The notes: generated from the sequence alone by a model not told the origin. Positions 4,983 through 39,792 are shown, counted from the stretch's first letter. The stretch: DNA of 64,000 nt from Candidatus Sulfopaludibacter sp. SbA3 (GCA_945865815.1 CAMBFR010000003.1:1258-65257), one strand, 5' to 3'. Made by a program: numbers and translations.

Positions 4983-5109
4983 TCCCCTCCTGTTTTAGGA
5001 GGGGTGGCGCGAAGCGCCGGGGTGGTATTGAAGGTCCACAGACTCTTTCGATCATTATACCACCCCGCCCTCGCTGTCGCTCGGGCTCTCCTCCTAAAAC
5101 AGGAGGGGA
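4983..5109. repeat. copy A (short form) of the GC-rich nested-palindrome intergenic repeat family
   Basis: Hairpin CCCCTCCTGTTTTAGGAGGGG at one end and CTCCTCCTAAAACAGGAGGGG at the other. Between them lie GGGGTGGTAT...ATACCACCCC and a GGCGCGAAGCGCC hairpin. The CCCCTCCT..AGGAGGGG and GGGGTGGT modules are shared with copies B, C and D. Confidence 0.6.
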
Positions 5110-5160
5110 ATTTGATCGCCAGGGCGGATCGGAATCTTCGGGATTGGACTCCGGATTTCC

Positions 5161-6789
5161 CTACAGCATTTCGTAACCGGGACCGCCGCCACCTTCCGGC
5201 GTAACCCAGTTGATGATCTGATACGGATCCATGATGTCGCACGTCTTGCAGTGGACGCAGTTGGACGCGTTGATCTGCAGCCGGTTGGCATCGGTCCATT
5301 CATAAACGGCGGCGGGACAGAAGTGCTGGCAGGGATTTCCAAATTCCTTGGTACAGCGGTTGGTGCAGATGTCGGGTTCAAGGACAACGAGGTGGCAGGG
5401 CTGGTCTTCGTCGTGGTCGGTACCGGAGTTGTAGACGTCGGTCAGCTTATCGAACGTGAGTTTCCTGTCGAAGGCGGCTTCCACCGGCGCTGGAACCGCA
5501 CCATTGTAGTATTCGAGAACCTTCCGCATGCGGGCGTGACCGGGGTGGTTCGTATACCGGTTGCGCAGACCGCGGCCGCCAGTCGCCATCTGGAGGCTGG
5601 TATGGATCATTCCCGAAAGGAAACCGTGTTCGAACGCCTGATGGAAGTTTCGAACCCTCCATAATTCCTCTTTCACCCAACTGCTCTCGACAAGGTCGTG
5701 GAAGCGCTTCAGTCTGGCTTCCGAGAAGTCGTCAGCCGCAAGAGCTTCCGAAGCGGCCTGCGCCGCGAGCATGCCGGTCTTGAACGAGAGGTGAATTCCC
5801 TTCAGGCGCATGGCATTCAGGAAACCGCCCGAATCGCCAATGATCATTCCGCCATTAAAGTAGTACTGAGGCTGAGCCCAGTAACCGCCTTCCGGAATTG
5901 TCTTTGCGCCATAAGAATAGAGCGTGCCGCCTTCGAGAATGGTTCGAATGTAGGGATGCGTCTTGAATTCCTGGAAGCGCTTGTGCGGATCCAGCCGGGG
6001 ATCCAGGTAATCCAGGCCTACAACCAGTCCGATCGAAACGCGTCCGTCGGCCATGTTGTAGATGAAACCGCCGCCGAATTCCTCGGTGGTCAGGGGCCAG
6101 CCCATGGTGTGGATGACGCGGCCGTCGACACCTTTCTGGCTCGGGACATCCCAGATCTCTTTCACGCCGACCGTATACACCTGCGGATTGCGCCCCGCGT
6201 CGAGCTTGAACTTCTGCACCAGTTGTTTCGTGAGCGAGCCGCGTGAGCCTTCCGCAAGGATTGTTATCTTCGCGCGGATATCGATGCCGGGCTCGTAGTT
6301 CCCTTTCTTGTTCCCGTGCTTGTCGATACCTTTGTCGCCGGTACGGACGCCGGCCACGGCGCCGTCTTCGATGAGGAGATCGGCGCCGGAAAACCCGGCA
6401 AAGATATCGACGCCGTTCTTTTCGACCTGCTCGCCGAACCAGCGGATGAACTTGTTCAGCGAGATGATGTAGTTGCCGTGGTTCTTCAGGGGAGGCGGAA
6501 TTATGGGAAGGTCGAACTTCCGGTTGCTGGTCAGATACGTGACATGGTCTTCCCGGACGGGACGCTCGACCGGCGCGCCTTTCTCCTTCCAGTCGGGCAT
6601 CAATTCGTTGATGCCTCGCGGATCCATCACCGCACCGGAAATGATGTGGGCGCCAATCTCCTTTCCTTTTTCCAGGACCGCGATCGACGCATCCGGATTC
6701 AGGCTGCGCAAGTGATAAGCGGCTGCGAGTCCCGACGGGCCGCCGCCGACGATGAGTACGTCAACTTCCAACGTTTCACGCTCGGCCAT
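5161..6789 (-). CDS. electron-transfer flavoprotein:ubiquinone oxidoreductase
   Basis: FAD-binding VDVLIVGGGPSGLAAAY, an ETF-QO body, and a C-terminal 4Fe-4S ferredoxin segment CVHCKTCDI. The ATG at 6789 (MAERETLEV) was verified. Confidence 0.9.
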   Translation of the reverse strand: MAERETLEVDVLIVGGGPSGLAAAYHLRSLNPDASIAVLEKGKEIGAHIISGAVMDPRGINELMPDWKEKGAPVERPVREDHVTYLTSNRKFDLPIIPPPLKNHGNYIISLNKFIRWFGEQVEKNGVDIFAGFSGADLLIEDGAVAGVRTGDKGIDKHGNKKGNYEPGIDIRAKITILAEGSRGSLTKQLVQKFKLDAGRNPQVYTVGVKEIWDVPSQKGVDGRVIHTMGWPLTTEEFGGGFIYNMADGRVSIGLVVGLDYLDPRLDPHKRFQEFKTHPYIRTILEGGTLYSYGAKTIPEGGYWAQPQYYFNGGMIIGDSGGFLNAMRLKGIHLSFKTGMLAAQAASEALAADDFSEARLKRFHDLVESSWVKEELWRVRNFHQAFEHGFLSGMIHTSLQMATGGRGLRNRYTNHPGHARMRKVLEYYNGAVPAPVEAAFDRKLTFDKLTDVYNSGTDHDEDQPCHLVVLEPDICTNRCTKEFGNPCQHFCPAAVYEWTDANRLQINASNCVHCKTCDIMDPYQIINWVTPEGGGGPGYEML

Positions 6790-6803
6790 AGGGCAAGTAT
6801 CTC

Positions 6804-8066
6804 CTAATCCGTATAACGCTTGAACAGCAGCGAGGCGTTCGTTCCGCCGAATCCAAAGGAGTTTGAAAGCGCATACTTGATGCTGGCCTTGCGCATTTGA
6901 TTCGGCGTGTAATCCAGATCGCAATCGGGATCGGGGGTGTCGTAGTTAATGGTCGGGGGTATGACGCCGCGTTCGATGGCTAGTACCGTGATTCCGGCTT
7001 CCACCGCGCCCGCCGCGCCAAGCAGGTGCCCAACCATCGATTTTGTCGAGCTGATTGAGAGCTTGCGGGCGTGTTCGCCGAACAGGCGCTTTATCGCATG
7101 GGTTTCGATGCGATCGTTGGGCGGAGTCGACGTGCCGTGCGCGTTGATATAGTCCACCTCTTCAGGTTTGATTCCCGCATCCGTAATTGCGTTCAACATG
7201 ACGCGCATGGCGCCGTGGCCGTCGTCTGGAGGGAGAGTGATGTGGTATGCGTCGCCGCTCATGCCATAGCCGACGAGTTCGGCGAGGATGGTCGCGCCCC
7301 GCTTCCTTGCCAACTCCAGTTCTTCAAGGATGACGACGCCTGCGCCTTCTCCGACGACAAATCCGTCGCGATCCTTGTCGAAGGGCCGGGACGCGCGCAA
7401 CGGTTCTTCGTTTCGAGTGGATAGAGCGCGCATCGCCGCAAAACCGCCGACGCCCATGGGAGTGATCGCTGCCTCGGAGCCTCCTGCGATCATTGCATCC
7501 GCGTCGCCGCGCGCGATCGCGCGGAACGCATCCCCGACTGCGTGCGCGCCCGATGAGCATGCCGTGCATGGCGCCGAGTTCGGGCCGCGGGCGCCGAACC
7601 GGATCGAAACCTGGCCAGCCGCAAGGTTGATGATGCTGGACGGAATAAAGAACGGGGATATCTTGCGCGGTCCGCCCTCGAGCAATGCCGTGTGCTCACG
7701 CTCGATTATCGCGAATCCACCAATTCCCGATCCGATGAATACTCCGGTCCGCTCCCGGAGTTCATCCGTAATCTGGAGGCCGGACTGCTTCATAGCAAAG
7801 TCCGCGGCTGCCACCGCGTAATGGATGAAGCTGTCCATCTTCTTGACGTCTTTCTTTTCGAACCATCGCAACGGATCGAAGTTTTTGACTTCAGCGGCAA
7901 TTCGCGTTGAAAACTGAGCCGTGTCGAAACGCGTGATGGCCGTAACGCCACTGCGCCCTTCACATAAACCCTTCCAGGTTTCCTCAGTTCCTGTTCCCAG
8001 CGCCGTAACCAGCCCGACGCCGGTAACGACGACTCTTCTCTTCTGCAATTCGTTAATTCCCTTCAC
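6804..8066 (-). CDS. fabF: beta-ketoacyl-ACP synthase II
   Basis: KAS II signature across the whole ORF: RRVVVTGVG, active-site Cys region [14 protein letters not shown], and His-His [15 protein letters not shown]. Confidence 0.9.
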
Positions 8067-8104
8067 GGCCGCAACGTAGCCTTAGGTCTCGCGCCAGCGC
8101 GCTG

Positions 8105-8350
8105 CTATGACTTGGGCAGGTGAGTCTCGATGTAACTGATCGCGTCCTTGACAGTGGTGATTTTCTCGGCATCTTCATCGGGAATCTCCATCCCGAATCC
8201 TTCTTCCAAAGCCATGACGAGTTCAACCGTATCGAGCGAATCCGCGCCAAGATCATCAATAAAGGAAGCGGTCGGAGTAACTTCCGATTCGTCCACCCCA
8301 AGCTGCTCGACGATGATCTGTTTAACCTTATCTTCGACTGAAGAAGCCAT
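8105..8350 (-). CDS. acpP: acyl carrier protein
   Basis: [50 protein letters not shown] carries the DSLD phosphopantetheine site. The ATG at 8350 follows GGAGGAG. Confidence 0.9.
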
Positions 8351-8415
8351 TCTTATCTCCTCCTGTTTTCTTGAACCAACACTGTGTCCGCTTATTCGCG
8401 GGAGCAAACCTGAAA

Positions 8416-10547: not shown

Positions 10548-10548
10548 C

Positions 10549-11100: not shown

Positions 11101-11155
11101 TTTTCAGTCTGGCGCCCGCCCCGCCCTGGTGGCGGGTGCGGGGAACTCGGAAAAC

Positions 11156-11946: not shown

Positions 11947-12102
11947 ATGATGCATCTGAGCGCCGAAACAGCCCTGGATCTGATCGAAGGCCGCCTGAGT
12001 CCTGACGAGCGCGCCGCGTGGGAAGCGCACGCCCAGGCATGCAAGGACTGCGAGAACGAGATCGAATACTGGAAACGCGCGCTGGGGATGCTGGAATGAA
12101 GA
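11947..12102 (+). CDS. small zf-HC2 (putative anti-sigma-factor zinc finger)-like protein, 51 aa
   Basis: Translates as MMHLSAETALDLIEGRLSPDERAAWEAHAQACKDCENEIEYWKRALGMLE. The pattern H...C..C plus the 'LSPDE' segment matches the zf-HC2 anti-sigma N-terminal motif. There is no obvious Shine-Dalgarno and no adjacent sigma factor. It is below the size cutoff of the ORF track. Confidence 0.3.
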
Positions 12103-12107
12103 CGCGG

Positions 12108-12165
12108 GCATAAAGCCCGCGGCTGCGTAGCCGCAGGCTTTACGCCTGCGTTCAGGCGAAGAGGT
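12108..12165. terminator. cluster of GC-rich hairpins; GCGGGCATAAAGCCCGC motif also found at 18205-18238
   Basis: GCGGGCATAAAGCCCGC stem-loop followed by GCAGGCTTTACGCCTGC stem-loop. It lies between convergent genes. The same hairpin sequence recurs between the two giant genes. Confidence 0.4.
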
Positions 12166-12170
12166 TTGAG

Positions 12171-13151
12171 CTACCTGGCCGCTTGTGCCGGCCGGGGCGC
12201 CTGCACTACAAGAAAGTCCGTTGTTCCATCGCCGAGCACCGGCTTGGCCCAACCGATGTTCCCGCCGGTAATTCCTGTGGACGCGCTCACGCCGGAAACT
12301 GTCAGTGTGTAGACGCGCTTGTCACCAGCAGGCAGGCTGGGCAGGTTCCACACTGCAGTCTCGGCATTCCTCGCATCCCGCTTCACTCCCTGATAGCCTG
12401 CGCCGGTATTGGCCGCAACCGTGATCTCCGGGGCCAGTGTCAACGAGACAGTGAGGTTTTCAGCCTTAAGCCCCTTGTCCGCTATGCCGACATTACTCAC
12501 GGTGAGCGTGAAGGTGGTGCCTCTGTCGCCGGAAGTTCCGGCGCTGATCTGGCCCGTGATGGGCACGCGCAGCCCGGCCTCGACGGTCATGAATTCCCAG
12601 ATTTGCCGCAATGCCACTTCCGGCAGTCTCGTCCGCGAGTAATTGCCCATTCGGAGACGGGCCTGGTCCCCCATCGCTGTAGTGTGCGTATACACCATCG
12701 ATTTGAACCATTCAAAATCCGCGCCTTCGCCGCCCGCATCTCTACGTGGATTCCCCATCACCGCGCCGTGGCACTGGCCGCAGCCATTGGCAATAAGGAT
12801 CGCCTGCCTGTCGCTGGCATTCGGAGGAATGGGTGTCCGCCAGTTTCCAGGAGCCGCAACCTTCGGCAAGCTGCCCATGTACGCCGCGAGATTGGCAACA
12901 TCCTGATCGCTGAAATTCTTCTCGGGAGTGAATCTTGGCATCACGCCCCATGGCTGACGCACGGCGCGCATGAACTGCGCCGGGGTCAGTTGATGACCGG
13001 CTAGATCGGGACCGAACATGCCCTCGCCGTTGTTGCCGTGGCAATTGCTGCAGGCGTTGTTGGTCGTCCAGAGAGTCTTCCCGGCCGCAACGTCGCCTGC
13101 CGGACCCTGAGCCAGGGGAAGCAAAAGCATCGCAATGAGAATAGCGTTCAT
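12171..13151 (-). CDS. dihaem c-type cytochrome with C-terminal beta-sandwich domain (paralog 1)
   Basis: Signal peptide MNAILIAMLLLPLAQG. Two haem-binding motifs, CSNCH and CGQCH. The C-terminal Thr/Gly-rich region resembles a DUF11-like fold. About 55-60% identical to the ORF at 25600..26619. Confidence 0.8.
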   Translation of the reverse strand: MNAILIAMLLLPLAQGPAGDVAAGKTLWTTNNACSNCHGNNGEGMFGPDLAGHQLTPAQFMRAVRQPWGVMPRFTPEKNFSDQDVANLAAYMGSLPKVAAPGNWRTPIPPNASDRQAILIANGCGQCHGAVMGNPRRDAGGEGADFEWFKSMVYTHTTAMGDQARLRMGNYSRTRLPEVALRQIWEFMTVEAGLRVPITGQISAGTSGDRGTTFTLTVSNVGIADKGLKAENLTVSLTLAPEITVAANTGAGYQGVKRDARNAETAVWNLPSLPAGDKRVYTLTVSGVSASTGITGGNIGWAKPVLGDGTTDFLVVQAPRPAQAAR

Positions 13152-13230
13152 TTTTTTCTCCTTAATGTCGGACTACTTTATGCCAAACCGGTTGGAGCGC
13201 AAAGAAAGTTTACGCGCGGGAAAGATCAAT

Positions 13231-13304
13231 AGCCCCGGGCAGATTCGAACTGCCGACCTCCGGTTTAGGAAACCGCTGCTCTATCCATCTGAGCTACGGG
13301 GCCG
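13231..13304 (-). tRNA. tRNA-Arg (anticodon CCT)
   Basis: Minus-strand sequence GGCCCCGTAGCTCAGATGGATAGAGCAGCGGTTTCCTAAACCGGAGGTCGGCAGTTCGAATCTGCCCGGGGCTA folds as a cloverleaf. It has a 7-bp acceptor stem, D-arm GCTC/GAGC, anticodon loop TTCCTAA and T-arm GGCAG-TTCGAAT-CTGCC. No CCA is encoded. Confidence 0.85.
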
Positions 13305-17000: not shown

Positions 17001-18201
17001 TGGCGTCCCACAAGAAACCACCTTGCCCTCGCGCGTTCCCGGCCATAAAGGTAACAGCGCCCGAGTTCGAAATCAGCGGCGGATTCATCCAGTCGGCAAC
17101 ACCAAGGCCAGGCAAAGTCTGCCCGCCGGTGACGACTGCTTCCGACTGTCCATCGGCGCGCATAACCCACATCTCGTTTGCGCGGCCGGTCCACAAGGTG
17201 ATTGCCAGATCTCCATTGTCGTTCAGAGATTTCGGACCGATATTAATGCAGCACGAACAGCACGCGCCGGATCGCAAAGGCGGGGGCATGACTACAGGGG
17301 AAAACGATGCACCGCGAAACGCCACAACAATGTCGAGGGGACGGTTGATCAGAACAACAACTTCGCCGCGGCCATTCATCGCAATTCCGTCGATGGTTTG
17401 AATGATTGCGTCTGCAACCGCCAGATTGTCGCCGGTAACGGCCAGAGTTCGAAGCGATCCGTTCTGGTAAACCATGGCGGCCTGCGAGCCGTTTGAGAGC
17501 GTCCCGATGAAGGCGAAGCGGTCGGCGCCGCCGTAGCTGATGTCTCCCATGGCGCGAAGCGTGACGGCGCTCGTCCGCACATCGTTGGCAATCGCCTGGC
17601 TCAGGCGATACGTGGGCCGCGTGCGAACCGTCACTGAAGCCTGACCGCCAAAGTGATACCTGGAATCGGCTGCGCCAATCAGTGCCGCAATCGTGGTCTC
17701 GCCCGCCTCAAGACCAGTGACGGTTCCCAGCGAATTCACCGACACGACGGCCGGCAGGCTCGAGAACCAGACAAACGGGACGTCGGCGAGAACGCGCCTG
17801 TCCGCGTCGACTGCTCTTACACTGACTGTTGCCGTCTGGCCAACTTCCAGCTCCACCCGGCTCGGCGTGATTTCAACCGCGAGAGGATAAACTCGGACTT
17901 CGAACCGTCCGGTTACCGAGTCTCCGGTCGCCTGGATTTCGGCGACGCCAGGCATCAGACCCTGCAGTTGGCCACGCTCGTCAACGCGCGCAATCTCGGG
18001 CCGGTTCGATGTCCAGACCGGTCGAAAACCCGAAACCGTAGCTCCTGTCACCGTCCTTGCCGTGGCACGCAACTGAAGGGAACGGGCGCTGATGACGAAA
18101 TCCTGCGGCGCCGTAATCTCAATAGTCGCCACGCTTACCGGCAGGTTTTGAGTCCACGCGGGAATGGATGCCAGAAAGCAGATCGCGGCCAGGAGCAGCA
18201 T
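14098..18201 (-). CDS. giant secreted protein with Big_2 Ig-like domains, NDxGxVAF-type beta-propeller-like repeats and C-terminal ~100-aa tandem modules
   Basis: Signal peptide MLLLAAICFLASIPAWTQ begins at the ATG near 18201. Big_2-like segments (TARTVTGATVSGFRPVWTSNRPEIARVDERGQLQGLMPGVAEIQA). Many repeats of the form I(N/D)xxGxVAFxAxLNGG. Three C-terminal GxAIANxxNxAxxT(F/L)xxTN modules. The N-terminal 56 codons of ORF 14098..18369 are not plausible coding. Confidence 0.7.
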   Translation of the reverse strand: MLLLAAICFLASIPAWTQNLPVSVATIEITAPQDFVISARSLQLRATARTVTGATVSGFRPVWTSNRPEIARVDERGQLQGLMPGVAEIQATGDSVTGRFEVRVYPLAVEITPSRVELEVGQTATVSVRAVDADRRVLADVPFVWFSSLPAVVSVNSLGTVTGLEAGETTIAALIGAADSRYHFGGQASVTVRTRPTYRLSQAIANDVRTSAVTLRAMGDISYGGADRFAFIGTLSNGSQAAMVYQNGSLRTLAVTGDNLAVADAIIQTIDGIAMNGRGEVVVLINRPLDIVVAFRGASFSPVVMPPPLRSGACCSCCINIGPKSLNDNGDLAITLWTGRANEMWVMRADGQSEAVVTGGQTLPGLGVADWMNPPLISNSGAVTFMAGNARGQGGFLWDARQVQKVYVTGDVVLGRTIQWLDVPMRTDSGDLYGRFGGPDFNMIGKYSTGSWRQVVPALAGSNSPNIWGIHNLFDARGSTVVFKGDSDQGSGVFRLEGEQISMVAPYGGSSANDWLDISNAVVRSTGDVMVRGSHGSSAGRIALVSGVSTSSAPLVETGRAIDGAVSTGLRWRELGRGINPSGPVLKTAGGILAAITRNAIQPLISPGDVMGSEGRLISIDQHFSSRSGNILFETQTTVGRSIHLWRNSVATLVMAAGRAIQMASLASVNVGWIYGPHAVNDRGQMAVQASFDQSVGVFFFPGAGGRPTLVMSGGTAAPGGGTYSYLNEIAIDENGRVAFVATLNGGGVAAFLWENGQIRRIGSAGDSGPGGQPIANFTSLQAAGNRFYAFLWAGNSAEHIAYYDGSGWRPVVSRGSGLSFGSSVQWFHNNKFVASASGDIAYFAGAGEVIAVVHKSDGRDIAVARRFDRLDRQWLTGTFLDLNLSDAGHVFFTDITTSVAGQRIVLLQADPPLPVRPFTVANRGGSSLRTDGAGALVQGYTRIQPDSGSTTASGIAILGFRQNNVLVSEAGVPASSPIQNGRIYAEVNGPLNTGVAIANPNSQAAVITFQITNSAGPGRTGTFTIPANTQKAFFLNSEPVNGGNAIQGTFSFSSSVPVSAVALRSFFNERTPAEFLMTTLPVVNTSLSASSGTQYIPHFADGGGMTTQILLVNPTDNALTGAVEVYSQGGQLSRSVPYSVAGRDSARLSGVGGAVLTQGSVRVVPAGGGVAPSAMAVFTYKPAGITLSEASVPAIQGSAFRMYVELSGIPGRAGNIESGFAIANTSNAAGTVTLELTNMDGSTTGLPAPVARTLPAAGQIVDSLGSFFSNLPNPFRGVLRMSASSGISVVGIRSRYNELGSYLMTTTPPTNEGAAASSTELLFPHIVNGGGFTTEFIVFSGAAGQSPSGSLRFFGDDGAPLTLSLN

Positions 18202-18238
18202 GCAGCCGCGGGCATAAAGCCCGCGGCTACCGCCTGCG

Positions 18239-25599: not shown

Positions 25600-26619
25600 C
25601 TATTGCGCTGAGGCGCGCGCGACGTTTATGGGAATGACATCCATACCGCCATCGCCGAGCCGCGGCTTCCCCCAGTTCACGTAACCGCGAGCAATTCCCG
25701 CTGCCGCTGTTGCACCGGTAATGGTCAACGTGTAGGTCCGGCGTTCCCCGGCAGCCAGAAACGGTATCTCCCAGGCTGCGGCTTCGGTGTTCGTATAGTT
25801 ATCGCGGCGGATACCGGTATAGCCGGCTCCCGTCGTTGCCGTCACCGTGACGCCTGCCTGTTGCGCCGCGGCGGCGCCTCCCGGCAACGGAAGAAACATG
25901 GTCAGGTTCTCGGCCGCAAGACCTTTACCGCGCGCGCCGCCGTTGGAAAGCGTGATCGTATAGGTGACCGTGTTGCCCGAAGCAGGCGGGGCGGTGATAT
26001 TCGCGGAGATATTGGCGCGCAGTCCCTGATCCACGCCAAAGAACTGCCAGATCTCGTGCAGCGCCTCTTCACTCAATCTCTGCCGGGAATAGTTCCCCAT
26101 GCGAAGATGTGCACGGTCGCGATTCGCCTCACCGGTGGTATGCGCGTACACCTCCTCTTTGAACCATTCGAAGTCCGCGCCCAGGCCGCCCGCGGTTCTG
26201 CGCGGATTCGCCATGAGCTGGCCATGGCATTGTCCGCACCCGTACGAAATCATCAGCCGCTGCCTTTCGGTGGCATTGGCCGGAACGTTCGTTAACCACT
26301 GGCCGGGCTCGGGAACCTTCGCCAGGGTCGCCAGGTAAGCCGCAGCCTGACGAACTTCCTGATCGGTAATGTTCTTATCGGCCGCAAAGGCGGGCATGAC
26401 TCCCCATGGCTGCCGGACAGCCCGCATGAACTGCGCGGGAGTCAAAGTATGGCCGGCGAGATCCGGACCTAGTCCACCCTCTCCCCTCACGCCGTGACAC
26501 AGCCTGCAATCGTGGTTGAAGCTTTCCCAGATAGCTTTCCCCGCCTGAACGTCTCCGCCGCCACCGGCAGGACCCTGGGCCAAAGGAATCAAAAGTAGCG
26601 CAATGAAAATGGGGTTCAT
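25600..26619 (-). CDS. dihaem c-type cytochrome with C-terminal beta-sandwich domain (paralog 2)
   Basis: MNPIFIALLLIPLAQGPAG signal. CRLCH and CGQCH haem motifs. Collinear with and about 55-60% identical to the ORF at 12171..13151. Confidence 0.8.
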   Translation of the reverse strand: MNPIFIALLLIPLAQGPAGGGGDVQAGKAIWESFNHDCRLCHGVRGEGGLGPDLAGHTLTPAQFMRAVRQPWGVMPAFAADKNITDQEVRQAAAYLATLAKVPEPGQWLTNVPANATERQRLMISYGCGQCHGQLMANPRRTAGGLGADFEWFKEEVYAHTTGEANRDRAHLRMGNYSRQRLSEEALHEIWQFFGVDQGLRANISANITAPPASGNTVTYTITLSNGGARGKGLAAENLTMFLPLPGGAAAAQQAGVTVTATTGAGYTGIRRDNYTNTEAAAWEIPFLAAGERRTYTLTITGATAAAGIARGYVNWGKPRLGDGGMDVIPINVARASAQ

Positions 26620-26706
26620 ACTCGGCCTCCTGCGCGTAACTCTACGCCACAACTTTCGGAGCGCAAAAAACTTTCTGGGAGGTAATTGACGAGTCGGCAG
26701 GCTGTG

Positions 26707-27022
26707 GGCGCGGGGCTTTAGCGCTGTGCAAAGTTCCAGAAAATTTCTATTTGATCCCTGGCACCGGGCTAAAAGCCCCGCGCCTGCGCAAAAACTCCCC
26801 TCCTGGATTAGGAGGGGTGCCGTTCGCGCGTTTTTTAGCGAACGGCGGGGTGGTGTCCAATCAATTAATGAGCGCTACGCGAGCATCCATAAGGTGGCTT
26901 CGCGTCATTCCGTACCACCCCGTCTGCGCCAATAAGGAACGGGACCATTCCCCTGGTGGCGCAGCCACCCCTCCTAACACAGGCGGGGAATAGGAGTGGC
27001 ACGGGGCTGAAGCCCCGCGCCT
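26707..27022. repeat. copy B of the GC-rich nested-palindrome intergenic repeat family (~315 bp)
   Basis: Modules: GGCGCGGGGCTTT...AAAGCCCCGCGCC, CTCCCCTCCTGGATTAGGAGGGGTG, CCGTTCGCGCGTTTTTTAGCGAACGG, GGGGTGGTGT...GTACCACCCCG, CCACCCCTCCTAACACAGGCGGGG and GGCACGGGGCTGAAGCCCCGCGCC. Same orientation as copy D. Confidence 0.65.
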
Positions 27023-27040
27023 ACGGGTCGACTGCAGGGT

Positions 27041-31977: not shown

Positions 31978-31995
31978 ATCGAACTCCTTTGTTTC

Positions 31996-35408: not shown

Positions 35409-35422
35409 GATAACCTGACACG

Positions 35423-36415
35423 TCAGTCCGTCGTATCCAGAGCGTGCATTGCCGCTTCCGGATACCGCAACCCCGCGACTTGAAACGATTCAAGAGCTTT
35501 ATCCAGTTCCGACCACGCGGATTCCGGCAGCATCAACGTTTCCGAGGCGGTATTCTCTTCCAGGTACTGCACGTGCCGCGTTCCGGGAATCGGCACGATG
35601 TCGGATCCCTGCCGCAACACCCAGGCAAGCGCCACCTGCGCGGGCGTCACGTTACTTGCAGAGGCAATTCTTCGGACTGATTCCACGAGCTCGAAATTGT
35701 GTTGGAAATTCCCGGCTTGAAATCGTGGATTGTTCCGGCGCCAGTCGCCGCTTGAAAGGTCGTCGAGACTTCGAATCTTCCCGCTGAGAAATCCGCGGCC
35801 AATCGGGCTGTAGGCGACCAGTCCGATTCCCAGTTCGCGCAGGGCCGGAAGAACCTTTTCTTTCACGCCCCGTTCCCAGAGTGAGTATTCGGTCTGCACC
35901 GCACTCAGCGGATGCACGGCATTGGCTCGGCGGATGGTGCCGGGACCTACTTCGGAAAGCCCGATGTATCGAACTTTGCCCGCCTTGACGAGATCCGCCA
36001 TGGCGCCGACCGTATCCTCTATTGGAGTGGCCGGATCGAGGCGATGCTGGTAGTAGAGGTCGATATAGTCGGTTCCGAGCCGCTTCAGCGATCCCTCAAC
36101 GGCTTCCTTCACATGTGCGGGACTGCTGTCCAGACCGGCCATCTGACCGTTCTCAATACGGAAAGCAAACTTGGTCGCAACCACGACCTTGTCGCGCCGC
36201 ACGGTTCGAAGCGCGCGGCCGACGAGTTCTTCATTCGTAAACGGACCGTAGATTTCCGCCGTATCCCAGAAGTTGGTCCCGATCTCCAGCGCTCGGTGCA
36301 GCACGCGAAACGATTCGGCTTCGTTCGAAGGTCCGTAGGCATAGGACATTCCCATACATCCCAGACCCAGTGTGGAAACCTGAAGACCCTGGCGGCCTAA
36401 GCTGCGTTTTTGCAT
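35423..36415 (-). CDS. aldo/keto reductase
   Basis: MQKRSLGRQGLQVSTLGLGCMGMSYAYG... AKR family 11/12-like. The ATG at 36415 was verified. Confidence 0.85.
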   Translation of the reverse strand: MQKRSLGRQGLQVSTLGLGCMGMSYAYGPSNEAESFRVLHRALEIGTNFWDTAEIYGPFTNEELVGRALRTVRRDKVVVATKFAFRIENGQMAGLDSSPAHVKEAVEGSLKRLGTDYIDLYYQHRLDPATPIEDTVGAMADLVKAGKVRYIGLSEVGPGTIRRANAVHPLSAVQTEYSLWERGVKEKVLPALRELGIGLVAYSPIGRGFLSGKIRSLDDLSSGDWRRNNPRFQAGNFQHNFELVESVRRIASASNVTPAQVALAWVLRQGSDIVPIPGTRHVQYLEENTASETLMLPESAWSELDKALESFQVAGLRYPEAAMHALDTTD

Positions 36416-36440
36416 GGAACACTCCTCTGCTATTCGCTGT

Positions 36441-36720
36441 GGGCGCGGGGCTTCAGCCCCGTGCACTGAAGTTTGGACATCACACGTATGCCGAGCAAGC
36501 GAAACGTGAGTCCGAACTCCCCTCCTGTCTTAGGAGGGGTGGCTGCGCCGAAGGCGCAGACGGGGTGGTACGGAATGACGCGAAGCCAAGTTATGGATGC
36601 TCGCGTAGCGCTCATTCAATAAGGATGCTTCGCATCATGTACACCACCCCGCCGTTCGCAAAAAACGCGCGAACGGCACCCCTCCTAATCCAGGAGGGGA
36701 GTTCGGGGCTGAAGCCCGGC
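36441..36720. repeat. copy C of the GC-rich nested-palindrome repeat family (inverted relative to copies B and D)
   Basis: Contains GGGCGCGGGGCTTCAGCCCCGTGC, CCCCTCCTGTCTTAGGAGGGGTGGCTGCGCCGAAGGCGCAGACGGGGTGGTACGGAATGACGCGAAGCC ... CGTTCGCAAAAAACGCGCGAACGG ... CCCCTCCTAATCCAGGAGGGG. It is the reverse complement of the module order in copy D. Confidence 0.65.
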
Positions 36721-36733
36721 ACCCACAGGAGTC

Positions 36734-37717
36734 TCAGTATCCCACACTGCAATCCACAAGATTCAATGGCGGCTCTCCCCTTTGAAAGCGTCGAAGACTC
36801 TCGCTGAACAAATCAATGATGTCGTCCCAGTGATCGGGACGAAAACCAGAAGAGTGCGGGGTAATGACCACATTGGGGAGCGTCCACAAGGGGCTGGAAG
36901 GTTCGAGCGGCTCACGGTCGAAGACATCCAGGACGGCGCCGCCGAGATGTCCGCTCTCCAGCGCGCGGATCATTGCGCCGTCATCCACGATTTTTCCCCG
37001 GGCGACATTGACGATTATCGCGCCTCGATTGAGCAACGCGATCTGGCCGGCGCCGATCATGCGTTCCGTTTCGGGCAGGGCGGGCGCGGCAATAACAAGA
37101 GCATCGCATCCGCGCAGAGCGTCGTCGAGCTGGTCAGGCGGCAGAACGCGATCGACGAACGCCGGTTTTAGCTGATCGGTGCGGCGGCGGATGCCGGTGA
37201 CGCGCATGCCGAAGGCGTTTGCCCGGCGCGCGACTTCCGTGCCGGTCGTACCGAGGCCGACAATCGTCATCGACTTTCCATGTAACGCCCATGGCCACGC
37301 ATTACCGTTGAGCTCATTCTGAATCCATCGCCGCTCGCGTTGCGCGGCGAGAGTTAAATCGAAGCGCCGGCTGAGCACAAGCAGTCCGCCCATGACGTGC
37401 TCGGCCATCGTAATCGCCTGGACGCCCCGCGAATTGCTCAGCACAATCCCGCGCGAAGCCAGTTCGCTCAGGGGAAGGCTGGCCACTGCAGAGGCAGTGG
37501 AGTGGACCCACCGCAGGACCGGGGCCTGCCGGACGGCCTGAGCGCTCAAGCGGGATGACAACGCCACGTCCGCGCTCTCGATTTCCCTAAGAGCCTCGTC
37601 TTCGTCGAGTGCGTGGGCGAAGTCCACATCTGGAAATCGTTCCCTCAACTTCGACACTTGGGACTCCGAAATCACCCAGAACGCAACCGGCCACCTGGTA
37701 TAAACAAGCACTTTCAT
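36734..37717 (-). CDS. D-isomer-specific 2-hydroxyacid dehydrogenase (NAD-binding)
   Basis: GLGTTGTEVARRANAFGMRV Rossmann motif with the catalytic R/E/H arrangement of the D-2-hydroxyacid dehydrogenase family. Confidence 0.8.
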   Translation of the reverse strand: MKVLVYTRWPVAFWVISESQVSKLRERFPDVDFAHALDEDEALREIESADVALSSRLSAQAVRQAPVLRWVHSTASAVASLPLSELASRGIVLSNSRGVQAITMAEHVMGGLLVLSRRFDLTLAAQRERRWIQNELNGNAWPWALHGKSMTIVGLGTTGTEVARRANAFGMRVTGIRRRTDQLKPAFVDRVLPPDQLDDALRGCDALVIAAPALPETERMIGAGQIALLNRGAIIVNVARGKIVDDGAMIRALESGHLGGAVLDVFDREPLEPSSPLWTLPNVVITPHSSGFRPDHWDDIIDLFSESLRRFQRGEPPLNLVDCSVGY

Positions 37718-37768
37718 ACGGACTGTCAGCCGCGGAGCGGCGGCACTGTTTTACGCAGTTCATTCAAG

Positions 37769-38290
37769 CTAGTAGTTGACCAGCGAAATGACGTTGTAGC
37801 CATTCAGACGATCGCGGCCCTTCAGGAAGTCGAGTTCCACGACGAACGTCGTGGCGGCGACCTTTGCGCCCAGTTTCTCCACAAGCCGGATTGTGGCCAG
37901 CGCGGTGCCTCCCGTCGCAAGAAGGTCATCGGCAATGACAACGCGGGCGCCGGGCTTCAGGGCGTCCTTGTGAATTTCCAGCTTGTCCGTTCCATATTCG
38001 AGTTCATAGCTGACGCTTTCGGTCGGCGCCGGCAATTTCTTAGGCTTGCGAACGGGGACGAAACCTGTACCGAGATGGTAGGCGAGGGCAGGCGCGAATA
38101 TGAATCCACGGGCTTCAATGCCGAGAATCAAATCGGGTTTCAGGGGGCGAACTTTTTCGGTCAGGCAGTCGATCACATTTCGGAAACCCGTGGGATCCTT
38201 GAGCAACGTCGTTATGTCATAAAAAAGGATGCCAGGCTTGGGAAAATCGGGAACCTCGCGAATCAACTTCTTGAATTCATCCATGATCAA
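37769..38290 (-). CDS. apt: adenine phosphoribosyltransferase
   Basis: Full-length Apt with PRPP-binding motif [13 protein letters not shown]. Confidence 0.9.
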
Positions 38291-38311
38291 CCTCGAATAA
38301 GAAAGGAGCGT

Positions 38312-38335
38312 TTTGCGCGTATCACGGACGGATTG
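38312..38335. promoter_or_regulatory. perfect 24-bp AT-rich palindrome GATTCGAATTTCGAAATTCGAATC between nadA and apt
   Basis: Self-complementary over all 24 nt, in an 83-bp gap between the nadA stop and the apt start. No U-tract follows on the minus strand. Confidence 0.4.
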
Positions 38336-38373
38336 TAACTGGAATTGCCGGATTCGAATTTCGAAATTCGAAT

Positions 38374-39462
38374 CTAGTTGGTGATTTCCAGCATTCGGTT
38401 GAGGGCAATGCGGGCGGATGCGGCGACGTCTGGAAGGACTGAAATTTGATTCACAACACGGCCTTCAAACAGGTTCTCCAGAGTCCAGAGCAGGTGCGGC
38501 GCATCGATGCGGAACATCGTCGAACAAAGGCAGCCGCAGTCGTCGAGCGGAATGATCAGGCGGTCAGGGTTCTCGTTCCGGAGGCGGTTGACCAGATGAA
38601 TCTCGGTGCCGATGGCCCACTTGCTGCCGGCCGGAGCCTCTGTAACGCGTTTGATGATGTGTTCGGTGGAACCGACGTCGTCAGAAAGCCGGGTGACTTC
38701 AAAGCGGCATTCCGGGTGGGCGATGACGCGGATTCCGGGATGCTTCGCCCGTACCTCGGCAACGTGTTGCGGCAAAAAACGCTGATGTACCGAACAATGC
38801 CCCTTCCAGAGAATGAACCGGGCGGCGCTCACTTCGCTTTCGGTGTTTCCTCCCAGCTCTTCGTAAGGGTCCCACACCATCATTTCGTCAAGACGATAGC
38901 CAAGCGCATAAGCCGTGTTCCTCCCCAGATGCTGGTCGGGAAGAAACAGAACCTTGTCCCCGCGGTCCAGCGCCCAGCGCATTACCGCTGAAGCATTCGA
39001 AGAGGTGCAAACGGCGCCGCCATTTCGGCCGCAGAACGCTTTGATATTCGCAGCCGAATTCATGTAGGTGATTGGAACGATTTTTTCCGGCGTAATCCCG
39101 GCGAGGTCGTTCCAGCAGGTTTCGACCTGGTCGATTGCGGCCATGTCGGCCATCGAGCAGCCGGCGCTCATATCCGGGAGGACGACCTTCTGATTGGCGG
39201 AGCTCAGGATATCCGCGCTTTCGGCCATGAAATGAACGCCGCAAAACACAATGTATTCAGCGTCTTTGCGGTTGGCGGCCCACTCGGCAAGTTTGAACGA
39301 ATCGCCCCGCACGTCGGCGAATTTGATCACTTCGTCACGCTGGTAGTGATGCCCGAGGATCACCAGACGCCGGCCAAGGCGCTCACGCACCTCACGGATT
39401 CGGGCATCGGTCTCGTGTTCGGTCAATTCGCCGAACTGTTCCGGCAGGATGGTCTGAAGCAT
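38374..39462 (-). CDS. nadA: quinolinate synthase
   Basis: Full-length NadA with the three conserved Cys for the 4Fe-4S cluster. Confidence 0.9.
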
Positions 39463-39492
39463 AGTCTAGAACCTTTGATGTTAGCACAAGTA

Positions 39493-39792
39493 GGCGCGGG
39501 GCTTCAGCCCCGCGCAAAACCTCCCCTCCTGGATTAGGAGGGGTGCCGGTCGCGTTTTTTCAGCGAACGGCGGGGTGGTGTACATGCTGCGAAGCCACCC
39601 TATGGATATTCGCGCAGCGCACCGATTTGAATGAGCGCTACGCGAGCATCCATAAGGTGGCTTCGCGTCATTCCGTACCACCCCGTCTGCGCCTTCGGCG
39701 CAGCCACCCCTCCTAAGACAGGAGGGGAGTTCGGACTCGCGTTTCGCTTGCTCGACATAATGTCCACACTTCAGGCACGGGACTGAAGCCTA
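39493..39792. repeat. copy D of the GC-rich nested-palindrome repeat family
   Basis: Same module order as copy B. Reverse-complement of copy C, about 85-90% identical by eye. Confidence 0.65.

What the first reader, a model, noticed from the sequence alone, without database searches (positions are those of the whole stretch)
4983..39792. Four-member family of GC-rich nested-palindrome intergenic repeats; two inverted copies bracket the 2-hydroxyacid dehydrogenase-apt-nadA segment
Copies lie at ~4983-5109 (short form), 26707-27022, 36441-36720 and 39493-39792. The last three are about 300 bp and share ordered modules:
- GGCGCGGGGCTTCAGCCCCGCGC
- CTCCCCTCCTGGATTAGGAGGGGTG
- CGTTCGCGCGTTTTTTAGCGAACGG
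- GGGGTGGTGTAC...GTACCACCCC
- CCACCCCTCCTAAGACAGGAGGGG
Each module is itself a palindrome.

All copies sit at gene 3' ends in intergenic DNA.

Copies C and D are reverse complements of each other. They flank exactly the three-gene segment 36734..39462, so they could mediate inversion or excision of that segment by homologous recombination.

The structure resembles REP/BIME or MITE elements. I cannot match the family to a named element from memory.
Basis: seen in the sequence. Interest (0 to 1): 0.6.

Follow-up and report, generated by a model that had tools for sequence, protein, structure and literature searches.

The report
Triple-helix-forming repeats tied to DUF559 nuclease
The four repeats are real, gene-less copies of a small element found in many bacterial phyla, whose two ends are built to fold into DNA triple helices like the E. 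coli BoxC repeats and whose full-length form carries one small nuclease gene (DUF559, the YcjD family), which gives an old orphan repeat family a candidate partner enzyme.

Summary
There are four copies, and C is inverted relative to B and D. C and D bracket the 2-hydroxyacid dehydrogenase, apt and nadA genes.

Each copy holds two inverted half-units. A half-unit is a pyrimidine/purine hairpin (CCCCTCCT-loop-AGGAGGGG), then a second hairpin of variable sequence (H2), then a G-rich box (GGGGTGGT).

The box is the mirror image of the hairpin's purine arm. At least nine variant families keep this rule. It is the code of an intrastrand purine-motif DNA triple helix, the class already described for E. 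coli BoxC/PIT/TM_ECO repeats (Holder 2015).

I found no report of the next point. In genomes and metagenomes of many phyla (GC 0.27-0.65), the same two half-units flank a single about 120-aa DUF559 (Vsr-like nuclease) gene in fixed geometry. Of 80 DUF559 loci, 61 carry the hairpin, against 3 of 438 control windows.

A cassette from the same metagenome series has a terminus 94% identical to the window's half-units. E. coli ycjD (DUF559) lies next to a BoxC copy, and ycjD-positive genomes carry more BoxC copies.

Close relatives lack copies A and D. I saw no inversion of the C-D segment. Mobilisation by DUF559 is inferred, not shown.

The parts
4980..5112 (.). Copy A, core element only: AATT-H1-H2-box ... 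box'-H2'-H1'-AATT.
   Evidence: Folded as ssDNA: -47.4 kcal/mol, z -10.5. It lies inside a 277-nt stretch (4880-5156) that is absent from the 88%-identical relative L218.
4984..5026 (+). Copy A, left triplex half-unit. H1 is CCCCTCCT-GTTTT-AGGAGGGG (4984-5004). H2 is GCGCGAAGCGC (5007-5017). The third-strand box GGGGTGGT is at 5019-5026.
   Evidence: The box follows the antiparallel G*G-C / T*A-T rule.
5059..5108 (-). Copy A, right half-unit, read on the minus strand. The box is at 5059-5066, H2' at 5067-5086, and H1' at 5088-5108 with one arm mismatch.
26704..27024 (+). Copy B, composite. The outer GTGG-tagged hairpin (26704-26788) is interrupted by about 50 nt. The core is 26793-26991. The outer hairpin on the right is 26998-27024.
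26797..26854 (+). Copy B, left half-unit. H1 is 26797-26817. H2 is CCGTTCGCGCGTTTTTTAGCGAACGG (26820-26845). The box is 26847-26854.
26914..26988 (-). Copy B, right half-unit. The box is 26914-26921. H2' is long. H1' is 26968-26988 with one mismatch.
36439..36726 (-). Copy C, composite, inverted relative to B and D. Outer GTGG-tagged hairpins are at 36439-36464 and 36704-36726. The core is 36514-36704.
   Evidence: (I1-I4).
36519..36569 (+). Copy C half-unit. H1 is 36519-36539. H2 is GCTGCGCCGAAGGCGCAG. The box is 36562-36569.
   Evidence: It is 94% identical over 53 nt to the left terminus of the DUF559 cassette L224.
36643..36699 (-). Copy C, second half-unit. The box is 36643-36650, followed by H2, with H1 at 36679-36699.
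39490..39792 (+). Copy D, composite. The GTAG-tagged outer hairpin is 39490-39515. The core is 39519-39732. A right-hand extension runs 39730-39775. The truncated outer hairpin is 39776-39792.
   Evidence: Folded as ssDNA: -106 kcal/mol, z -14. The whole composite is absent from the syntenic HDOD-nadA spacer of L217.
39523..39579 (+). Copy D, left half-unit. H1 is 39523-39543, followed by H2, with the box at 39572-39579.
39677..39727 (-). Copy D, right half-unit. The box is 39677-39684. H2 is GCTGCGCCGAAGGCGCAG. H1 is 39707-39727.
36734..39462 (-). Three-gene segment bracketed by the inverted copies C and D: 2-hydroxyacid dehydrogenase, phosphoribosyltransferase (apt-like) and NadA.
   Evidence: Pfam. 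The same gene order appears in the independent contigs L001-L003.

Best explanation
**What it is.** The four repeats are gene-less, internally deleted (MITE- or REPIN-like) copies of a small cassette found across bacterial phyla.

**The full-length cassette.** It is about 420-740 nt long and carries one gene, a 105-160-aa DUF559 protein. DUF559 is a Vsr-like PD-(D/E)xK nuclease of the E. coli YcjD family. The gene sits between two inverted termini.

**The terminus.** Each terminus is a half-unit with four pieces in order:
- a pyrimidine arm;
- a loop, then a purine arm, together forming hairpin H1;
- a linker that is usually a second hairpin (H2), with variable sequence but conserved pairing;
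- a G/T-rich box that is the mirror image of the purine arm.

**How the terminus folds.** On single-stranded DNA the box can fold back into the major groove of H1. It runs antiparallel to the purine arm and forms G*G-C, A*A-T and T*A-T triples. This is an intrastrand purine-motif triple helix. E. coli BoxC/PIT/TM_ECO repeats are the same structural class.

**Inferred mechanism.**
- The DUF559 nuclease recognises and cuts these folded termini when the DNA is transiently single-stranded or supercoiled.
- It thereby propagates its own cassette and, in trans, the gene-less copies. This resembles RAYT with REP/REPINs, or IS200/IS605 TnpA with its hairpin ends.
- No target-site duplication is left behind.

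**In this genome.**
- Copies B, C and D are enclosed by an inverted pair of GT(A/G)G-tagged REP-like hairpins, and that composite is the unit that was gained.
- The copies are neutral or mildly disruptive intergenic passengers.
- They differ between close relatives and break short-read assemblies.
- They offer substrates for recombination: C/D could invert the segment between them, and B/D could delete it.

**Shown.** The anatomy, the mirror covariation, the DUF559 linkage, the cross-phylum conservation, and the presence/absence differences.

**Inferred.** Triplex formation by this particular sequence, nuclease activity on it, and the route of mobility.
For: Most are Acidobacteriota. Others are Bacteroidota, Chlamydiota, Nitrospirota, Verrucomicrobiota and more. 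About 47 nt are roughly 90% conserved despite GC of 0.33-0.68.

**2. From motif to gene.** In 6 of 114 motif loci a DUF559 gene (Pfam E 1e-30 to 1e-34) sits exactly between the two half-units, always in the same orientation.

**3. From gene to motif.** I took 80 metagenome loci chosen only by DUF559 similarity.
- H1 lies upstream in 47, downstream in 52, on either side in 61 and on both sides in 38.
- ACCACCCC lies downstream in 61.
- H1 appears in only 3 of 438 control windows at least 900 nt away.
- No other gene recurs next to DUF559.
- 32 complete cassettes share one anatomy.

**4. H2 covaries.**
- 314 half-units carry 230 distinct linker (H2) sequences.
- Minimum free energy per nt is -0.39 against -0.18 for shuffles, p = 3e-34.
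- The covariation score is 0.15 against 0.04-0.05, with 0 of 500 shuffles as high.

**5. Mirror covariation between arm and box.**
- 361 of 738 strand instances have the exact antiparallel box downstream. That is nearly every physical hairpin, because each is counted on both strands.
- Only 10 of 738 do after shuffling.
- At least nine arm variants each carry their own mirrored box, giving a diagonal-dominant table.

**6. The structural class is experimentally established for BoxC.**
- It has 23 copies in MG1655.
- Five sites hold inverted pairs.
- Loci with it vary between strains (PMC4666352).

**7. Link to E. coli.**
- YcjD is the closest NCBIfam model.
- K-12 ycjD lies next to a TM_ECO type A copy.
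- ycjD is present in 3378 of 5426 genomes.
- In an evenly spaced sample, genomes with an intact ycjD-fabI spacer have a median of 20 BoxC places (n = 37). Genomes without it have a median of 7 (n = 22). Mann-Whitney p = 1e-9.

**8. A matching autonomous copy exists nearby.**
- Cassette L224/L223 comes from the same ENA series as a contig of this window.
- Its GC is 0.59.
- One terminus is 94% identical over 53 nt to half-units of C and D.
- MAG AA68 holds one cassette (L114) plus at least 16 loci with gene-less copies of the same type.

**9. Recent gain or loss.**
- Relative L218 (88% nt identity over 12 kb) lacks the 277-nt stretch that contains A.
- L217 lacks D in a syntenic spacer.
- C and D are 97% identical.
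Against: - **No enzymology.** Nothing shows that any DUF559 protein binds or cuts these structures. DUF559 is not a known transposase fold family, although TnsA is also PD-(D/E)xK.
- **Published negatives for BoxC (PMC4666352).** Holder et al. found no association of TM_ECO with mobile elements. They saw no triplex signal in double-stranded DNA or by in vivo DMS footprinting.
- **The E. coli correlation is weak evidence.** BoxC persists at 1-16 copies in E. coli genomes that lack ycjD. The correlation follows phylogroups, so it amounts to few independent events.
- **No autonomous copy in view.** There is no DUF559 gene in the 64-kb window. The rest of the genome could not be searched.
- **No footprint of transposition.** No target-site duplication or defined cleavage site was found.
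- **Neither empty site has a core-only boundary.** D's indel includes the outer REP-like hairpins. A's indel includes about 145 nt of other sequence and has a TCCGGA direct repeat, which is also compatible with a deletion in the relative. B, C and D may therefore have spread by another route, for example a RAYT acting on the outer GTAG-type hairpins.
- **The linkage is incomplete.** 19 of 80 DUF559 loci lack the canonical hairpin by my criteria, although several of them carry variant types.
Confidence: 0.6

Rival explanations
1. Host-retained REP/BIME-type structural repeats. They would be spread by a RAYT-type tyrosine transposase acting on the outer GT(A/G)G-tagged hairpins, or by recombination. 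They would be kept for effects on transcription termination, mRNA stability or supercoiling. DUF559 would be a passenger gene that happens to be captured between such repeats.
For: - B, C and D are each enclosed by an inverted pair of GT(A/G)G-GCGCGGGGC-TTCA-GCCCCGCGC hairpins.
- That tag defines the GTAG REP superfamily, which is thought to be mobilised by RAYTs (PMC3733652).
- The indel at D runs from the outer hairpin at one end to just beyond the outer hairpin's GTAG head at the other.
- In many loci H1 is followed by a T-run, like an intrinsic terminator.
- A, B and C lie downstream of genes.
Against: - Copy A, and nearly all copies in other genomes, lack the outer hairpins. Among all fetched loci those hairpins occur only in this organism.
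- No RAYT or other gene recurs next to the elements.
- The fixed geometry and orientation of DUF559 between the two half-units in 38-61 of 80 loci across phyla is not what a passenger gene would show.
- The simple terminator scan does not call C or D.
- PIT/BoxC elements showed no promoter or terminator activity, as cited in PMC4666352.
- Mirror covariation has no role in a plain hairpin function.
Confidence: 0.2
2. Enzyme-free 'instability motifs'. Triplex-forming repeats would arise and spread through replication slippage, stalling and repair, as Holder et al. proposed for TM_ECO. The DUF559 nuclease would be a host repair or processing factor for such structures rather than their mobiliser.
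For: - TM loci are more variable between E. coli strains, and PIT elements block DNA polymerase in vitro (PMC4666352).
- Direct tandem arrays of 63-nt half-units in L044, L086 and L069 look like slippage products.
- No target-site duplication was found.
- Vsr, the nearest characterised relative of DUF559, is a repair nuclease.
Against: - Slippage does not explain dispersal to unlinked intergenic sites as near-identical copies (C/D are 97% identical and 3 kb apart; B/D share 64 nt at 100% and lie 12.7 kb apart).
- It does not explain about 90% sequence conservation of the termini across phyla with very different GC.
- It does not explain why the gene is precisely framed by two inverted termini.
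Confidence: 0.15
3. A family of structured non-coding RNAs or 3'/5' UTR elements, such as mRNA stabilisers or sRNAs, that acts at the RNA level.
For: - Very stable predicted folds.
- Compensatory changes in H2.
- Intergenic position next to gene ends.
Against: - No Rfam family matches at gathering score. The relaxed search gives only generic hairpin (miRNA precursor) noise.
- Elements occur in both orientations relative to neighbouring genes and also between divergent promoters (D).
- They are symmetric, so both strands carry the same fold.
- The arm/box covariation follows the purine-motif triple-helix rule, which does not form in RNA (PMC4666352 introduction).
- H2 loops are mostly C-GAA-G or C-GCA-G triloops, which to my recollection are typical of stable DNA mini-hairpins.
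Confidence: 0.05

Closest known systems
E. coli BoxC = PIT elements = TM_ECO intrastrand triplex motifs (Bergler 1992; Hoyne/Maher 2000; Holder et al. 2015, PMC4666352)
   Same: - The block order is the same: pyrimidine arm, loop, purine arm, loop, then a G-rich third strand obeying G*G-C, A*A-T and T*A-T antiparallel triples (class II purine motif).
- Both are G/C-rich, intergenic and multi-copy.
- Both often occur as inverted pairs.
- Both vary in presence between strains.
- One BoxC copy lies next to the E. coli DUF559 gene ycjD.
   Different: - The sequence differs: CCCCTCCT/AGGAGGGG/GGGGTGGT against CCCTCNCCC/GGGNGAGGG/GGGNGAGGG.
- Arms are 8 nt, not 9.
- The second loop is usually a 10-60-nt hairpin with covarying stem rather than 3 nt, so the ITxF definition (loops 1-6 nt) would miss most copies.
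- The two half-units are joined by a central stem (GGGGTGGT...ACCACCCC).
- The hosts are Acidobacteriota, Bacteroidota and others, not Proteobacteria.
- The BoxC literature I could search reports no linked gene and states there is no link to mobile elements.
REP / BIME / REPIN elements with their RAYT (TnpA_REP) genes
   Same: - Short GC-rich palindromes dispersed in intergenic DNA, often as inverted doublets that fold into a long hairpin.
- A single-copy gene flanked by the same repeats in inverted orientation.
- No target-site duplication.
- Probable recognition of folded single-stranded DNA.
- Repeat number drops in lineages that lack the gene (the E. coli ycjD/BoxC sample).
   Different: - The flanked gene is a PD-(D/E)xK Vsr-like nuclease, not an HUH/Y1 transposase.
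- The core hairpin has no GTAG or CGTC tag.
- The termini carry a third-strand box.
- Only the extra outer hairpins of B, C and D look like GTAG-type REPs.
MITEs derived from DDE transposons (for example Correia/NEMIS, ERIC)
   Same: - Gene-less, 90-300 nt, with terminal inverted repeats.
- Related to a longer gene-carrying form by internal deletion.
- Insertion polymorphism between relatives.
   Different: - No target-site duplication.
- No DDE transposase.
- The inverted termini are about 45-70 nt and internally structured (hairpin, hairpin, box) rather than simple TIRs.
IS200/IS605 family (TnpA Y1; IS608, ISDra2)
   Same: - Small elements whose ends are subterminal DNA hairpins read on one strand.
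- Single-strand 'peel and paste' tied to replication.
- No target-site duplication and no classical TIRs.
   Different: - The protein fold and chemistry are unrelated.
- Here the two ends are true inverted repeats.
- The predicted end structure is a triple helix.
Vsr and the Vsr-like homing endonuclease I-Bth0305I (PDB 3R3P); DUF559 structure 3HRL
   Same: - The cassette protein matches 3HRL (E = 4e-28) and weakly matches 3R3P, 'mobile intron protein' (E = 0.006).
- Within this fold there is a precedent for a selfish, mobility-promoting nuclease.
   Different: - Vsr nicks T:G mismatches in duplex DNA.
- Homing endonucleases copy themselves into one cognate empty allele and do not generate dispersed gene-less derivatives with structured ends.

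Membership tests
Intrastrand triplex motifs (BoxC/PIT/TM, class II purine motif; Holder 2015) | Three consecutive blocks on one strand: pyrimidine arm, complementary purine arm, and a third G/A/T block antiparallel to the purine arm that gives G*G-C, A*A-T and T*A-T triples. | tested here: met
   All 8 half-units in the window meet it. So do 361 of 738 strand instances across loci, against 10 of 738 after shuffling. At least nine variant arm types each have their own mirrored box.
Intrastrand triplex motifs (BoxC/PIT/TM, class II purine motif; Holder 2015) | Short loops: 1-6 nt in the ITxF definition, and a 3-nt second loop in TM_ECO. | tested here: not met
   The first loop is 5 nt. The second 'loop' is 14-29 nt in the window and 2-102 nt across loci (median 17), and it usually forms its own hairpin. 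Minimal variants with 2-4 nt exist in other genomes.
Intrastrand triplex motifs (BoxC/PIT/TM, class II purine motif; Holder 2015) | The TM_ECO sequence pattern CCCTCNCCC-N3-6-GGGNGAGGG-N3-GGGNGAGGG. | tested here: not met
   The window motif is CCCCTCCT-N5-AGGAGGGG-...-GGGGTGGT. It belongs to the same structural class but is a different sequence family.
Intrastrand triplex motifs (BoxC/PIT/TM, class II purine motif; Holder 2015) | Intergenic, multi-copy, often in inverted pairs, with loci that vary between strains. | tested here: met
   There are four intergenic inverted pairs in 64 kb. Relatives lack A and D.
Intrastrand triplex motifs (BoxC/PIT/TM, class II purine motif; Holder 2015) | Physical formation of a triple helix by the single strand (CD, NMR, DMS protection). 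| not testable with these tools
   I have only the sequence rule and its covariation. ViennaRNA does not model triplexes.
REP / REPIN (RAYT-associated) | A 20-40-nt palindrome with an unpaired GTAG (or CGTC) tag at one end (PMC3733652). | tested here: inconclusive
   The core hairpin H1 has no such tag; its flanks are A-N-T / A-N-T. The outer hairpins of B, C and D do carry GTAG or GTGG heads. Copy A has no outer hairpins.
REP / REPIN (RAYT-associated) | A RAYT (Y1 transposase) gene in the genome flanked by the same repeats. | tested here: not met
   The only gene found between the repeats, in 6 genome loci and up to 61 of 80 metagenome loci, is DUF559. No other neighbour recurs. The whole genome of this organism could not be searched.
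MITE (transposon-derived) | Terminal inverted repeats plus a target-site duplication of fixed length. | tested here: not met
   Inverted termini are present. No direct repeat exceeds expectation at any offset or length across 80 elements; the only excess is the palindromic AGCT/AATT, which is part of the inverted repeat.
MITE (transposon-derived) | A longer autonomous relative with the same termini that encodes the mobilising enzyme. | tested here: inconclusive
   A longer relative with the same termini exists: the DUF559 cassettes. Whether DUF559 is the mobilising enzyme is untested.
Rfam structured RNA families | A match to a curated covariance model at its gathering score. | tested here: not met
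   Only a tRNA at 13230-13303 passes in the whole window. The relaxed search on A and D gives sub-threshold miRNA-hairpin noise.
Intrinsic (rho-independent) terminators | A GC-rich hairpin followed directly by a T-run. | tested here: not met
   The scan of 36300-39950 calls no site inside C or D. In other genomes H1 is often followed by AGCTTTT. I did not test that for function.
DUF559 / YcjD (PF04480), for the cassette protein found in related loci, not in the window | A Pfam PF04480 match above the gathering score, with similarity to the solved DUF559 structure. | tested here: met
   Pfam gives E 1e-30 to 1e-34 and 102-116 bits against a cutoff of 20.6. PDB 3HRL matches at E = 4e-28. The NCBIfam PRK09767 (YcjD) model is the best hit but falls below its equivalog cutoff.

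The most novel reading that the evidence does not exclude
DUF559/YcjD proteins would be the cognate nucleases of the BoxC/PIT-type intrastrand-triplex repeats. Gene plus termini would form a previously unrecognised class of bacterial mobile element. A Vsr-like PD-(D/E)xK nuclease would recognise its ends as folded DNA triple helices. The dispersed gene-less repeats, including E. coli BoxC and the four copies here, would be its non-autonomous derivatives.
Probability: 0.4. Interest if true: 0.9.

Novelty: new variant of a known kind. Interest (0 to 1): 0.72.

Why it matters
BoxC/PIT/TM repeats have been known in E. coli for about 30 years. They form triple helices in vitro, yet they have no known function, origin or partner protein. 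DUF559 is a very large protein family of unknown function.

This window led to a conserved, cross-phylum physical linkage between the two. Triplex-coded termini frame a DUF559 gene, with covariation that argues for selection on a DNA triple helix.

If the linkage reflects function, three things follow:
- It explains where these repeats come from.
- It assigns an activity to DUF559/YcjD.
- It would be a natural case of a protein reading a DNA triplex.

All of this is directly testable in E. coli K-12 with ycjD and BoxC.

There is also a practical side. These elements break metagenome assemblies and mark sites of strain-level rearrangement.

Tried and rejected
**Rfam.** Searches at gathering and relaxed thresholds found nothing beyond a tRNA and hairpin noise.

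**Literature by sequence.** A full-text search for the motif strings returned only unrelated primer hits.

**Literature by name.** Searches for DUF559, PF04480/COG2852, ycjD and 'intrastrand triplex' found no paper linking the protein to the repeats.

**CRISPR-like arrays.** The 63-nt spaced hits in L044 and L086 are tandem half-units, not repeat-spacer arrays.

**Target-site duplication.** I tested all lengths from 2 to 8 at offsets 0-8. None was found.

**Recurrent neighbour genes (RAYT or another transposase).** Two locus sets gave only DUF559 and unrelated response-regulator clusters.

**DUF559 in the window.** tblastn found none.

**Viral contigs.** Only 1 of 16 DUF559 loci has full termini, so this is not a phage feature.

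**Terminator scan at C and D.** No call inside the elements.

**Alternative pairing of the G-box with the pyrimidine arm.** By hand this gives at best 6 of 8 pairs including wobbles in the canonical family and is poor in the variants, so I rejected it in favour of the triplex rule.

**G-quadruplex reading.** It does not explain the position-specific A to A/T covariation.

**MAFFT alignment of copy A against L218.** It misplaced the right flank. I reset the junction with BLAST.

**E. coli K-12, 45-kb region.** It holds only one BoxC copy, so I could not run a multi-copy check there.

**Inversion of the C-D segment.** No contig shows the alternative orientation.

Full report
**1. Observation**

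- The hairpin pattern CCCCTCCTNNNTTAGGAGGGGTG occurs eight times with up to 2 mismatches, as four +/- pairs. None is expected in shuffles.
- GGGGTGGT occurs nine times against 1.5 expected, and eight of those lie inside the copies.
- C aligns with B and D only as its reverse complement.
- The C/D inverted arms are 133 nt at 97% and 86 nt at 88%.
- B and D are direct repeats and share 64 nt at 100%.
- C and D bracket 36734-39462, which holds a 2-hydroxyacid dehydrogenase, a phosphoribosyltransferase and NadA.

One statement needs correcting. D lies between the 5' ends of nadA and an HDOD-domain gene. A, B and C each lie between the 3' end of one minus-strand gene and the 5' end of the next.

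Rfam has no family for the repeats.

**2. Anatomy**

Each core is two inverted half-units around a central spacer. Read inward, a half-unit has these pieces:
- a short inverted-repeat extension (A-N-T);
- H1, which is CCCCTCCT, a 5-nt loop, then AGGAGGGG;
- TG;
- H2, a hairpin whose sequence differs between copies;
- the box GGGGTGGT.

The two boxes pair with each other (GGGGTGGT...ACCACCCC) and close the central part.

B, C and D also carry a pair of outer hairpins, GT(A/G)G-GCGCGGGGC-TTCA-GCCCCGCGC. C and D carry a right-hand extension as well.

As single-stranded DNA the elements are very stable: A is -47 kcal/mol with z -10.5, and D is -106 kcal/mol with z -14.

**3. The family is widespread**

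Most are Acidobacteriota MAGs (Pyrinomonadaceae, Chloracidobacterium, Aridibacter, 'gp5' AA63/64/68). Others are Prevotella, Flavobacteriia, Pedobacter, Chlamydiota, Nitrospirota, Coraliomargarita and more.

About 47 nt (H1 to the box) stay roughly 90% identical in genomes with GC from 0.33 to 0.68.

H2 keeps its pairing while its sequence changes.
- 314 half-units carry 230 distinct linker (H2) sequences.
- Folding energy per nucleotide is -0.39 against -0.18 for shuffles, p = 3e-34.
- On two equal-length classes the covariation score is 0.15 against 0.04-0.05 for shuffles (0 of 500 as high), and at most 0.04 for slid partners.

**4. A gene sits inside the long form**

Clustering the ORFs of the fetched loci showed one small protein lying exactly between two half-units in six loci from different phyla. 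It is DUF559 (PF04480, E 1e-30 to 1e-34). It relates to the solved DUF559 structure 3HRL (E = 4e-28) and weakly to the Vsr-like homing endonuclease 3R3P.

For the reverse test I took 80 metagenome loci chosen only by similarity to these proteins.
- H1 lies within 260 nt upstream in 47, downstream in 52, on either side in 61 and on both sides in 38.
- ACCACCCC lies downstream in 61.
- In control windows of the same loci, at least 900 nt from the gene, H1 occurs in 3 of 438.
- No other gene recurs beside DUF559.

The 32 complete cassettes (417-739 nt) share one plan: terminus, usually 20-50 nt, ATG, DUF559 in a fixed orientation, then a stop at or inside the right terminus.

The window's copies therefore look like internally deleted forms of such cassettes. 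The window itself has no DUF559 gene.

A cassette does occur in two assemblies of the same ENA series as the window's contig (L224/L223, GC 0.59).
- Its left terminus is 94% identical over 53 nt to half-units of C and D, with the same H2.
- MAG AA68 holds one cassette (L114) and at least 16 loci with gene-less copies of the same H1 type.

**5. The mirror rule**

DUF559 loci that lack the canonical hairpin carry variants of it. In every variant the box changes with the hairpin. The box is the reverse, not the complement, of the purine arm, with A matched by A or T.

| Purine arm | Box |
|---|---|
| AGGAGGGG | GGGGTGGT |
| AGGGGGAG | GAGGGGGT |
| AGGAGGAG | GAGGTGGT |
| AGGAGAGG | GGAGTGGT |
| AGGGGAGG | GGAGGGGT |
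| AGGGAAGG | GGAAGGGT |
| AGGGGAGA | AGAGGGGT |
| AGGGGAAG | GATGGGGT |
| GGGGGAGG | GGAGGGGG |

- Over all pyrimidine/purine hairpins, 361 of 738 strand instances have the exact antiparallel box within 110 nt downstream. That is nearly every physical hairpin, because each is counted on both strands. After shuffling the figure is 10 of 738.
- The own-type against other-type table is diagonal-dominant.

This is the pairing code of an intramolecular purine-motif triple helix (G*G-C, A*A-T, T*A-T, third strand antiparallel to the purine strand), with H2 as the fold-back linker.

Watson-Crick or wobble pairing of the box with the pyrimidine arm is poor. A quadruplex would not need position-specific A/T covariation.

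Purine-motif triplexes do not form in RNA (PMC4666352, introduction). The constraint therefore points to DNA.

**6. What is already known**

The structural class has been described. E. coli BoxC, later called PIT elements and TM_ECO, is CCCTCNCCC-N3-6-GGGNGAGGG-N3-GGGNGAGGG (PMC4666352).
- It has 23 copies in MG1655, and five sites hold inverted pairs.
- It is always intergenic.
- The triplex was not detected in duplex DNA or by in vivo DMS.
- Its function is unknown.
- Loci that carry it vary more between strains.

That paper does not mention ycjD or any endonuclease. I found no later paper that links the motif to a protein.

**7. The E. coli link**

- The closest NCBIfam model to the cassette proteins is YcjD.
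- In K-12, ycjD lies between sapF and fabI.
- Its 3' end and the spacer toward fabI hold a degenerate and a complete TM_ECO type A copy: CCCTCGCCCCTCTGGGGAGAGGGTTAGGGTGAGGGG.
- That repeat occurs a median of 17 times per E. coli genome.
- ycjD is present in 3378 of 5426 complete genomes. These are phylogroups A, B1 and C plus two sequence types; elsewhere eefRABCD replaces it (PMC12817139).
- In an evenly spaced sample, genomes with the ycjD-fabI spacer intact have a median of 20 BoxC places (range 13-29, n = 37). The others have a median of 7 (range 1-16, n = 22). Mann-Whitney p = 1e-9.
- This fits dependence of the repeats on the gene, but phylogeny confounds it.

**8. Gain and loss; the inversion idea**

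- L218 is colinear with the window over 12 kb at 88% identity. It lacks window 4880-5156, a 277-nt stretch that contains core A. A TCCGGA direct repeat marks both junctions.
- L217 has NadA at 87% identity and the same divergent HDOD/nadA arrangement. Its spacer is 116 nt with no element. The extra DNA in the window is the whole composite D, outer hairpins included.
- None of the relatives' contigs holds an H1 hairpin.
- The orientation of nadA relative to HDOD matches that relative. Every contig that crosses C has the window's orientation. Two Logan contigs simply end in the repeats.
- I therefore see no evidence of inversion, although 133 nt at 97% in inverted orientation would allow it.

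**9. Mechanism**

Shown:
- The repeats are symmetric pairs of triplex-coded termini.
- The same termini frame a DUF559 gene across phyla.
- The termini evolve under constraints on two hairpins and on a mirror box.
- Copies are gained or lost between close relatives.
- No target-site duplication is present.

Inferred:
- DUF559 cuts the folded termini on transiently single-stranded DNA.
- It thereby propagates the cassette and, in trans, the gene-less copies. This resembles RAYT with REPINs or IS200/IS605 TnpA.

Uncertain:
- B, C and D sit inside a GT(A/G)G-tagged REP-like doublet (PMC3733652). The indel at D runs from one outer hairpin to just beyond the GTAG head of the other. In this genome the composite may therefore have moved by another enzyme.
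- Core A sits in a larger indel that is only partly explained.

**10. Verdict**

The finding is a real repeat family. Its first-order interpretation (REP/MITE-like) is right but incomplete.
- It is a new variant of the BoxC/PIT intrastrand-triplex kind.
- Its consistent linkage to DUF559 is, as far as I could find, unreported.
- That linkage makes the origin of these repeats and the function of DUF559/YcjD directly testable.

Noticed in passing
window 58550-58589 and 58642-58681: A 40-nt inverted repeat (98% complementary) with a 52-nt spacer, rich in GGAAAT/GGATTT. Similar GGAAT-type runs lie beside triplex elements in L044 and L060.
   Followed up: no
window 12096-12124, 18200-18228 (weaker at 59424-59452): A second small hairpin repeat, GCGGGCATAAAGCCCGC(GGCT), at the ends of large ORFs. 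It may be another REP-like or terminator family.
   Followed up: no
window 52024-52107: A tandem duplication of a 42-nt unit, 86% identical.
   Followed up: no
window 12897-13062 and 26353-26518: A 166-nt direct repeat at 70% identity that reflects two paralogous cytochrome c genes (12171-13151 and 25600-26652).
   Followed up: partly
window 4880-5156: A 277-nt stretch absent from relative L218, with TCCGGA at both junctions. Besides core A it holds about 100 nt on the left and 45 nt on the right of unexplained sequence. It could be an older insertion in the window, or a deletion in the relative.
   Followed up: partly
window 26722-26770: The left outer hairpin of copy B is interrupted by about 50 nt (GGGCGCGGGGCTTT...AAAGCCCCGCGCC). 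This looks like a further nested insertion.
   Followed up: no
L044 6375-6523; L086 2930-3117; L069 4996-5090; L100 4236-4350: Direct tandem arrays of half-units (63-nt period; 46 nt in L100). In L086 the array may lie in frame within an ORF (21 codons per unit).
   Followed up: partly
L224 1501-2046 (also L223): A DUF559 cassette inserted between the T6SS genes tssG and clpV. It is preceded by three GGTTAATCC-type short repeats.
   Followed up: partly
L122, L123, L130, L139, L141, L198 (right termini): In several lineages the DUF559 ORF reads through ACCACCCC-H2'-CCCCTCCT and stops at a TAA in the H1' loop. The right terminus therefore encodes a roughly 14-aa C-terminal tail.
   Followed up: no
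L222 about 21290-21370 (E. coli K-12, between ycjD and fabI): A partial duplicate of the 3' end of ycjD lies between ycjD and the complete BoxC copy. It suggests past rearrangement at this terminus.
   Followed up: no
table (DUF559 homologues): Most contigs that carry these DUF559 genes are under 2 kb. That fits assemblies breaking at the flanking repeats. JGI names the proteins 'very-short-patch-repair endonuclease'.
   Followed up: no
window 13230-13303 (-): A tRNA gene, the only Rfam match in the window at gathering score.
   Followed up: no
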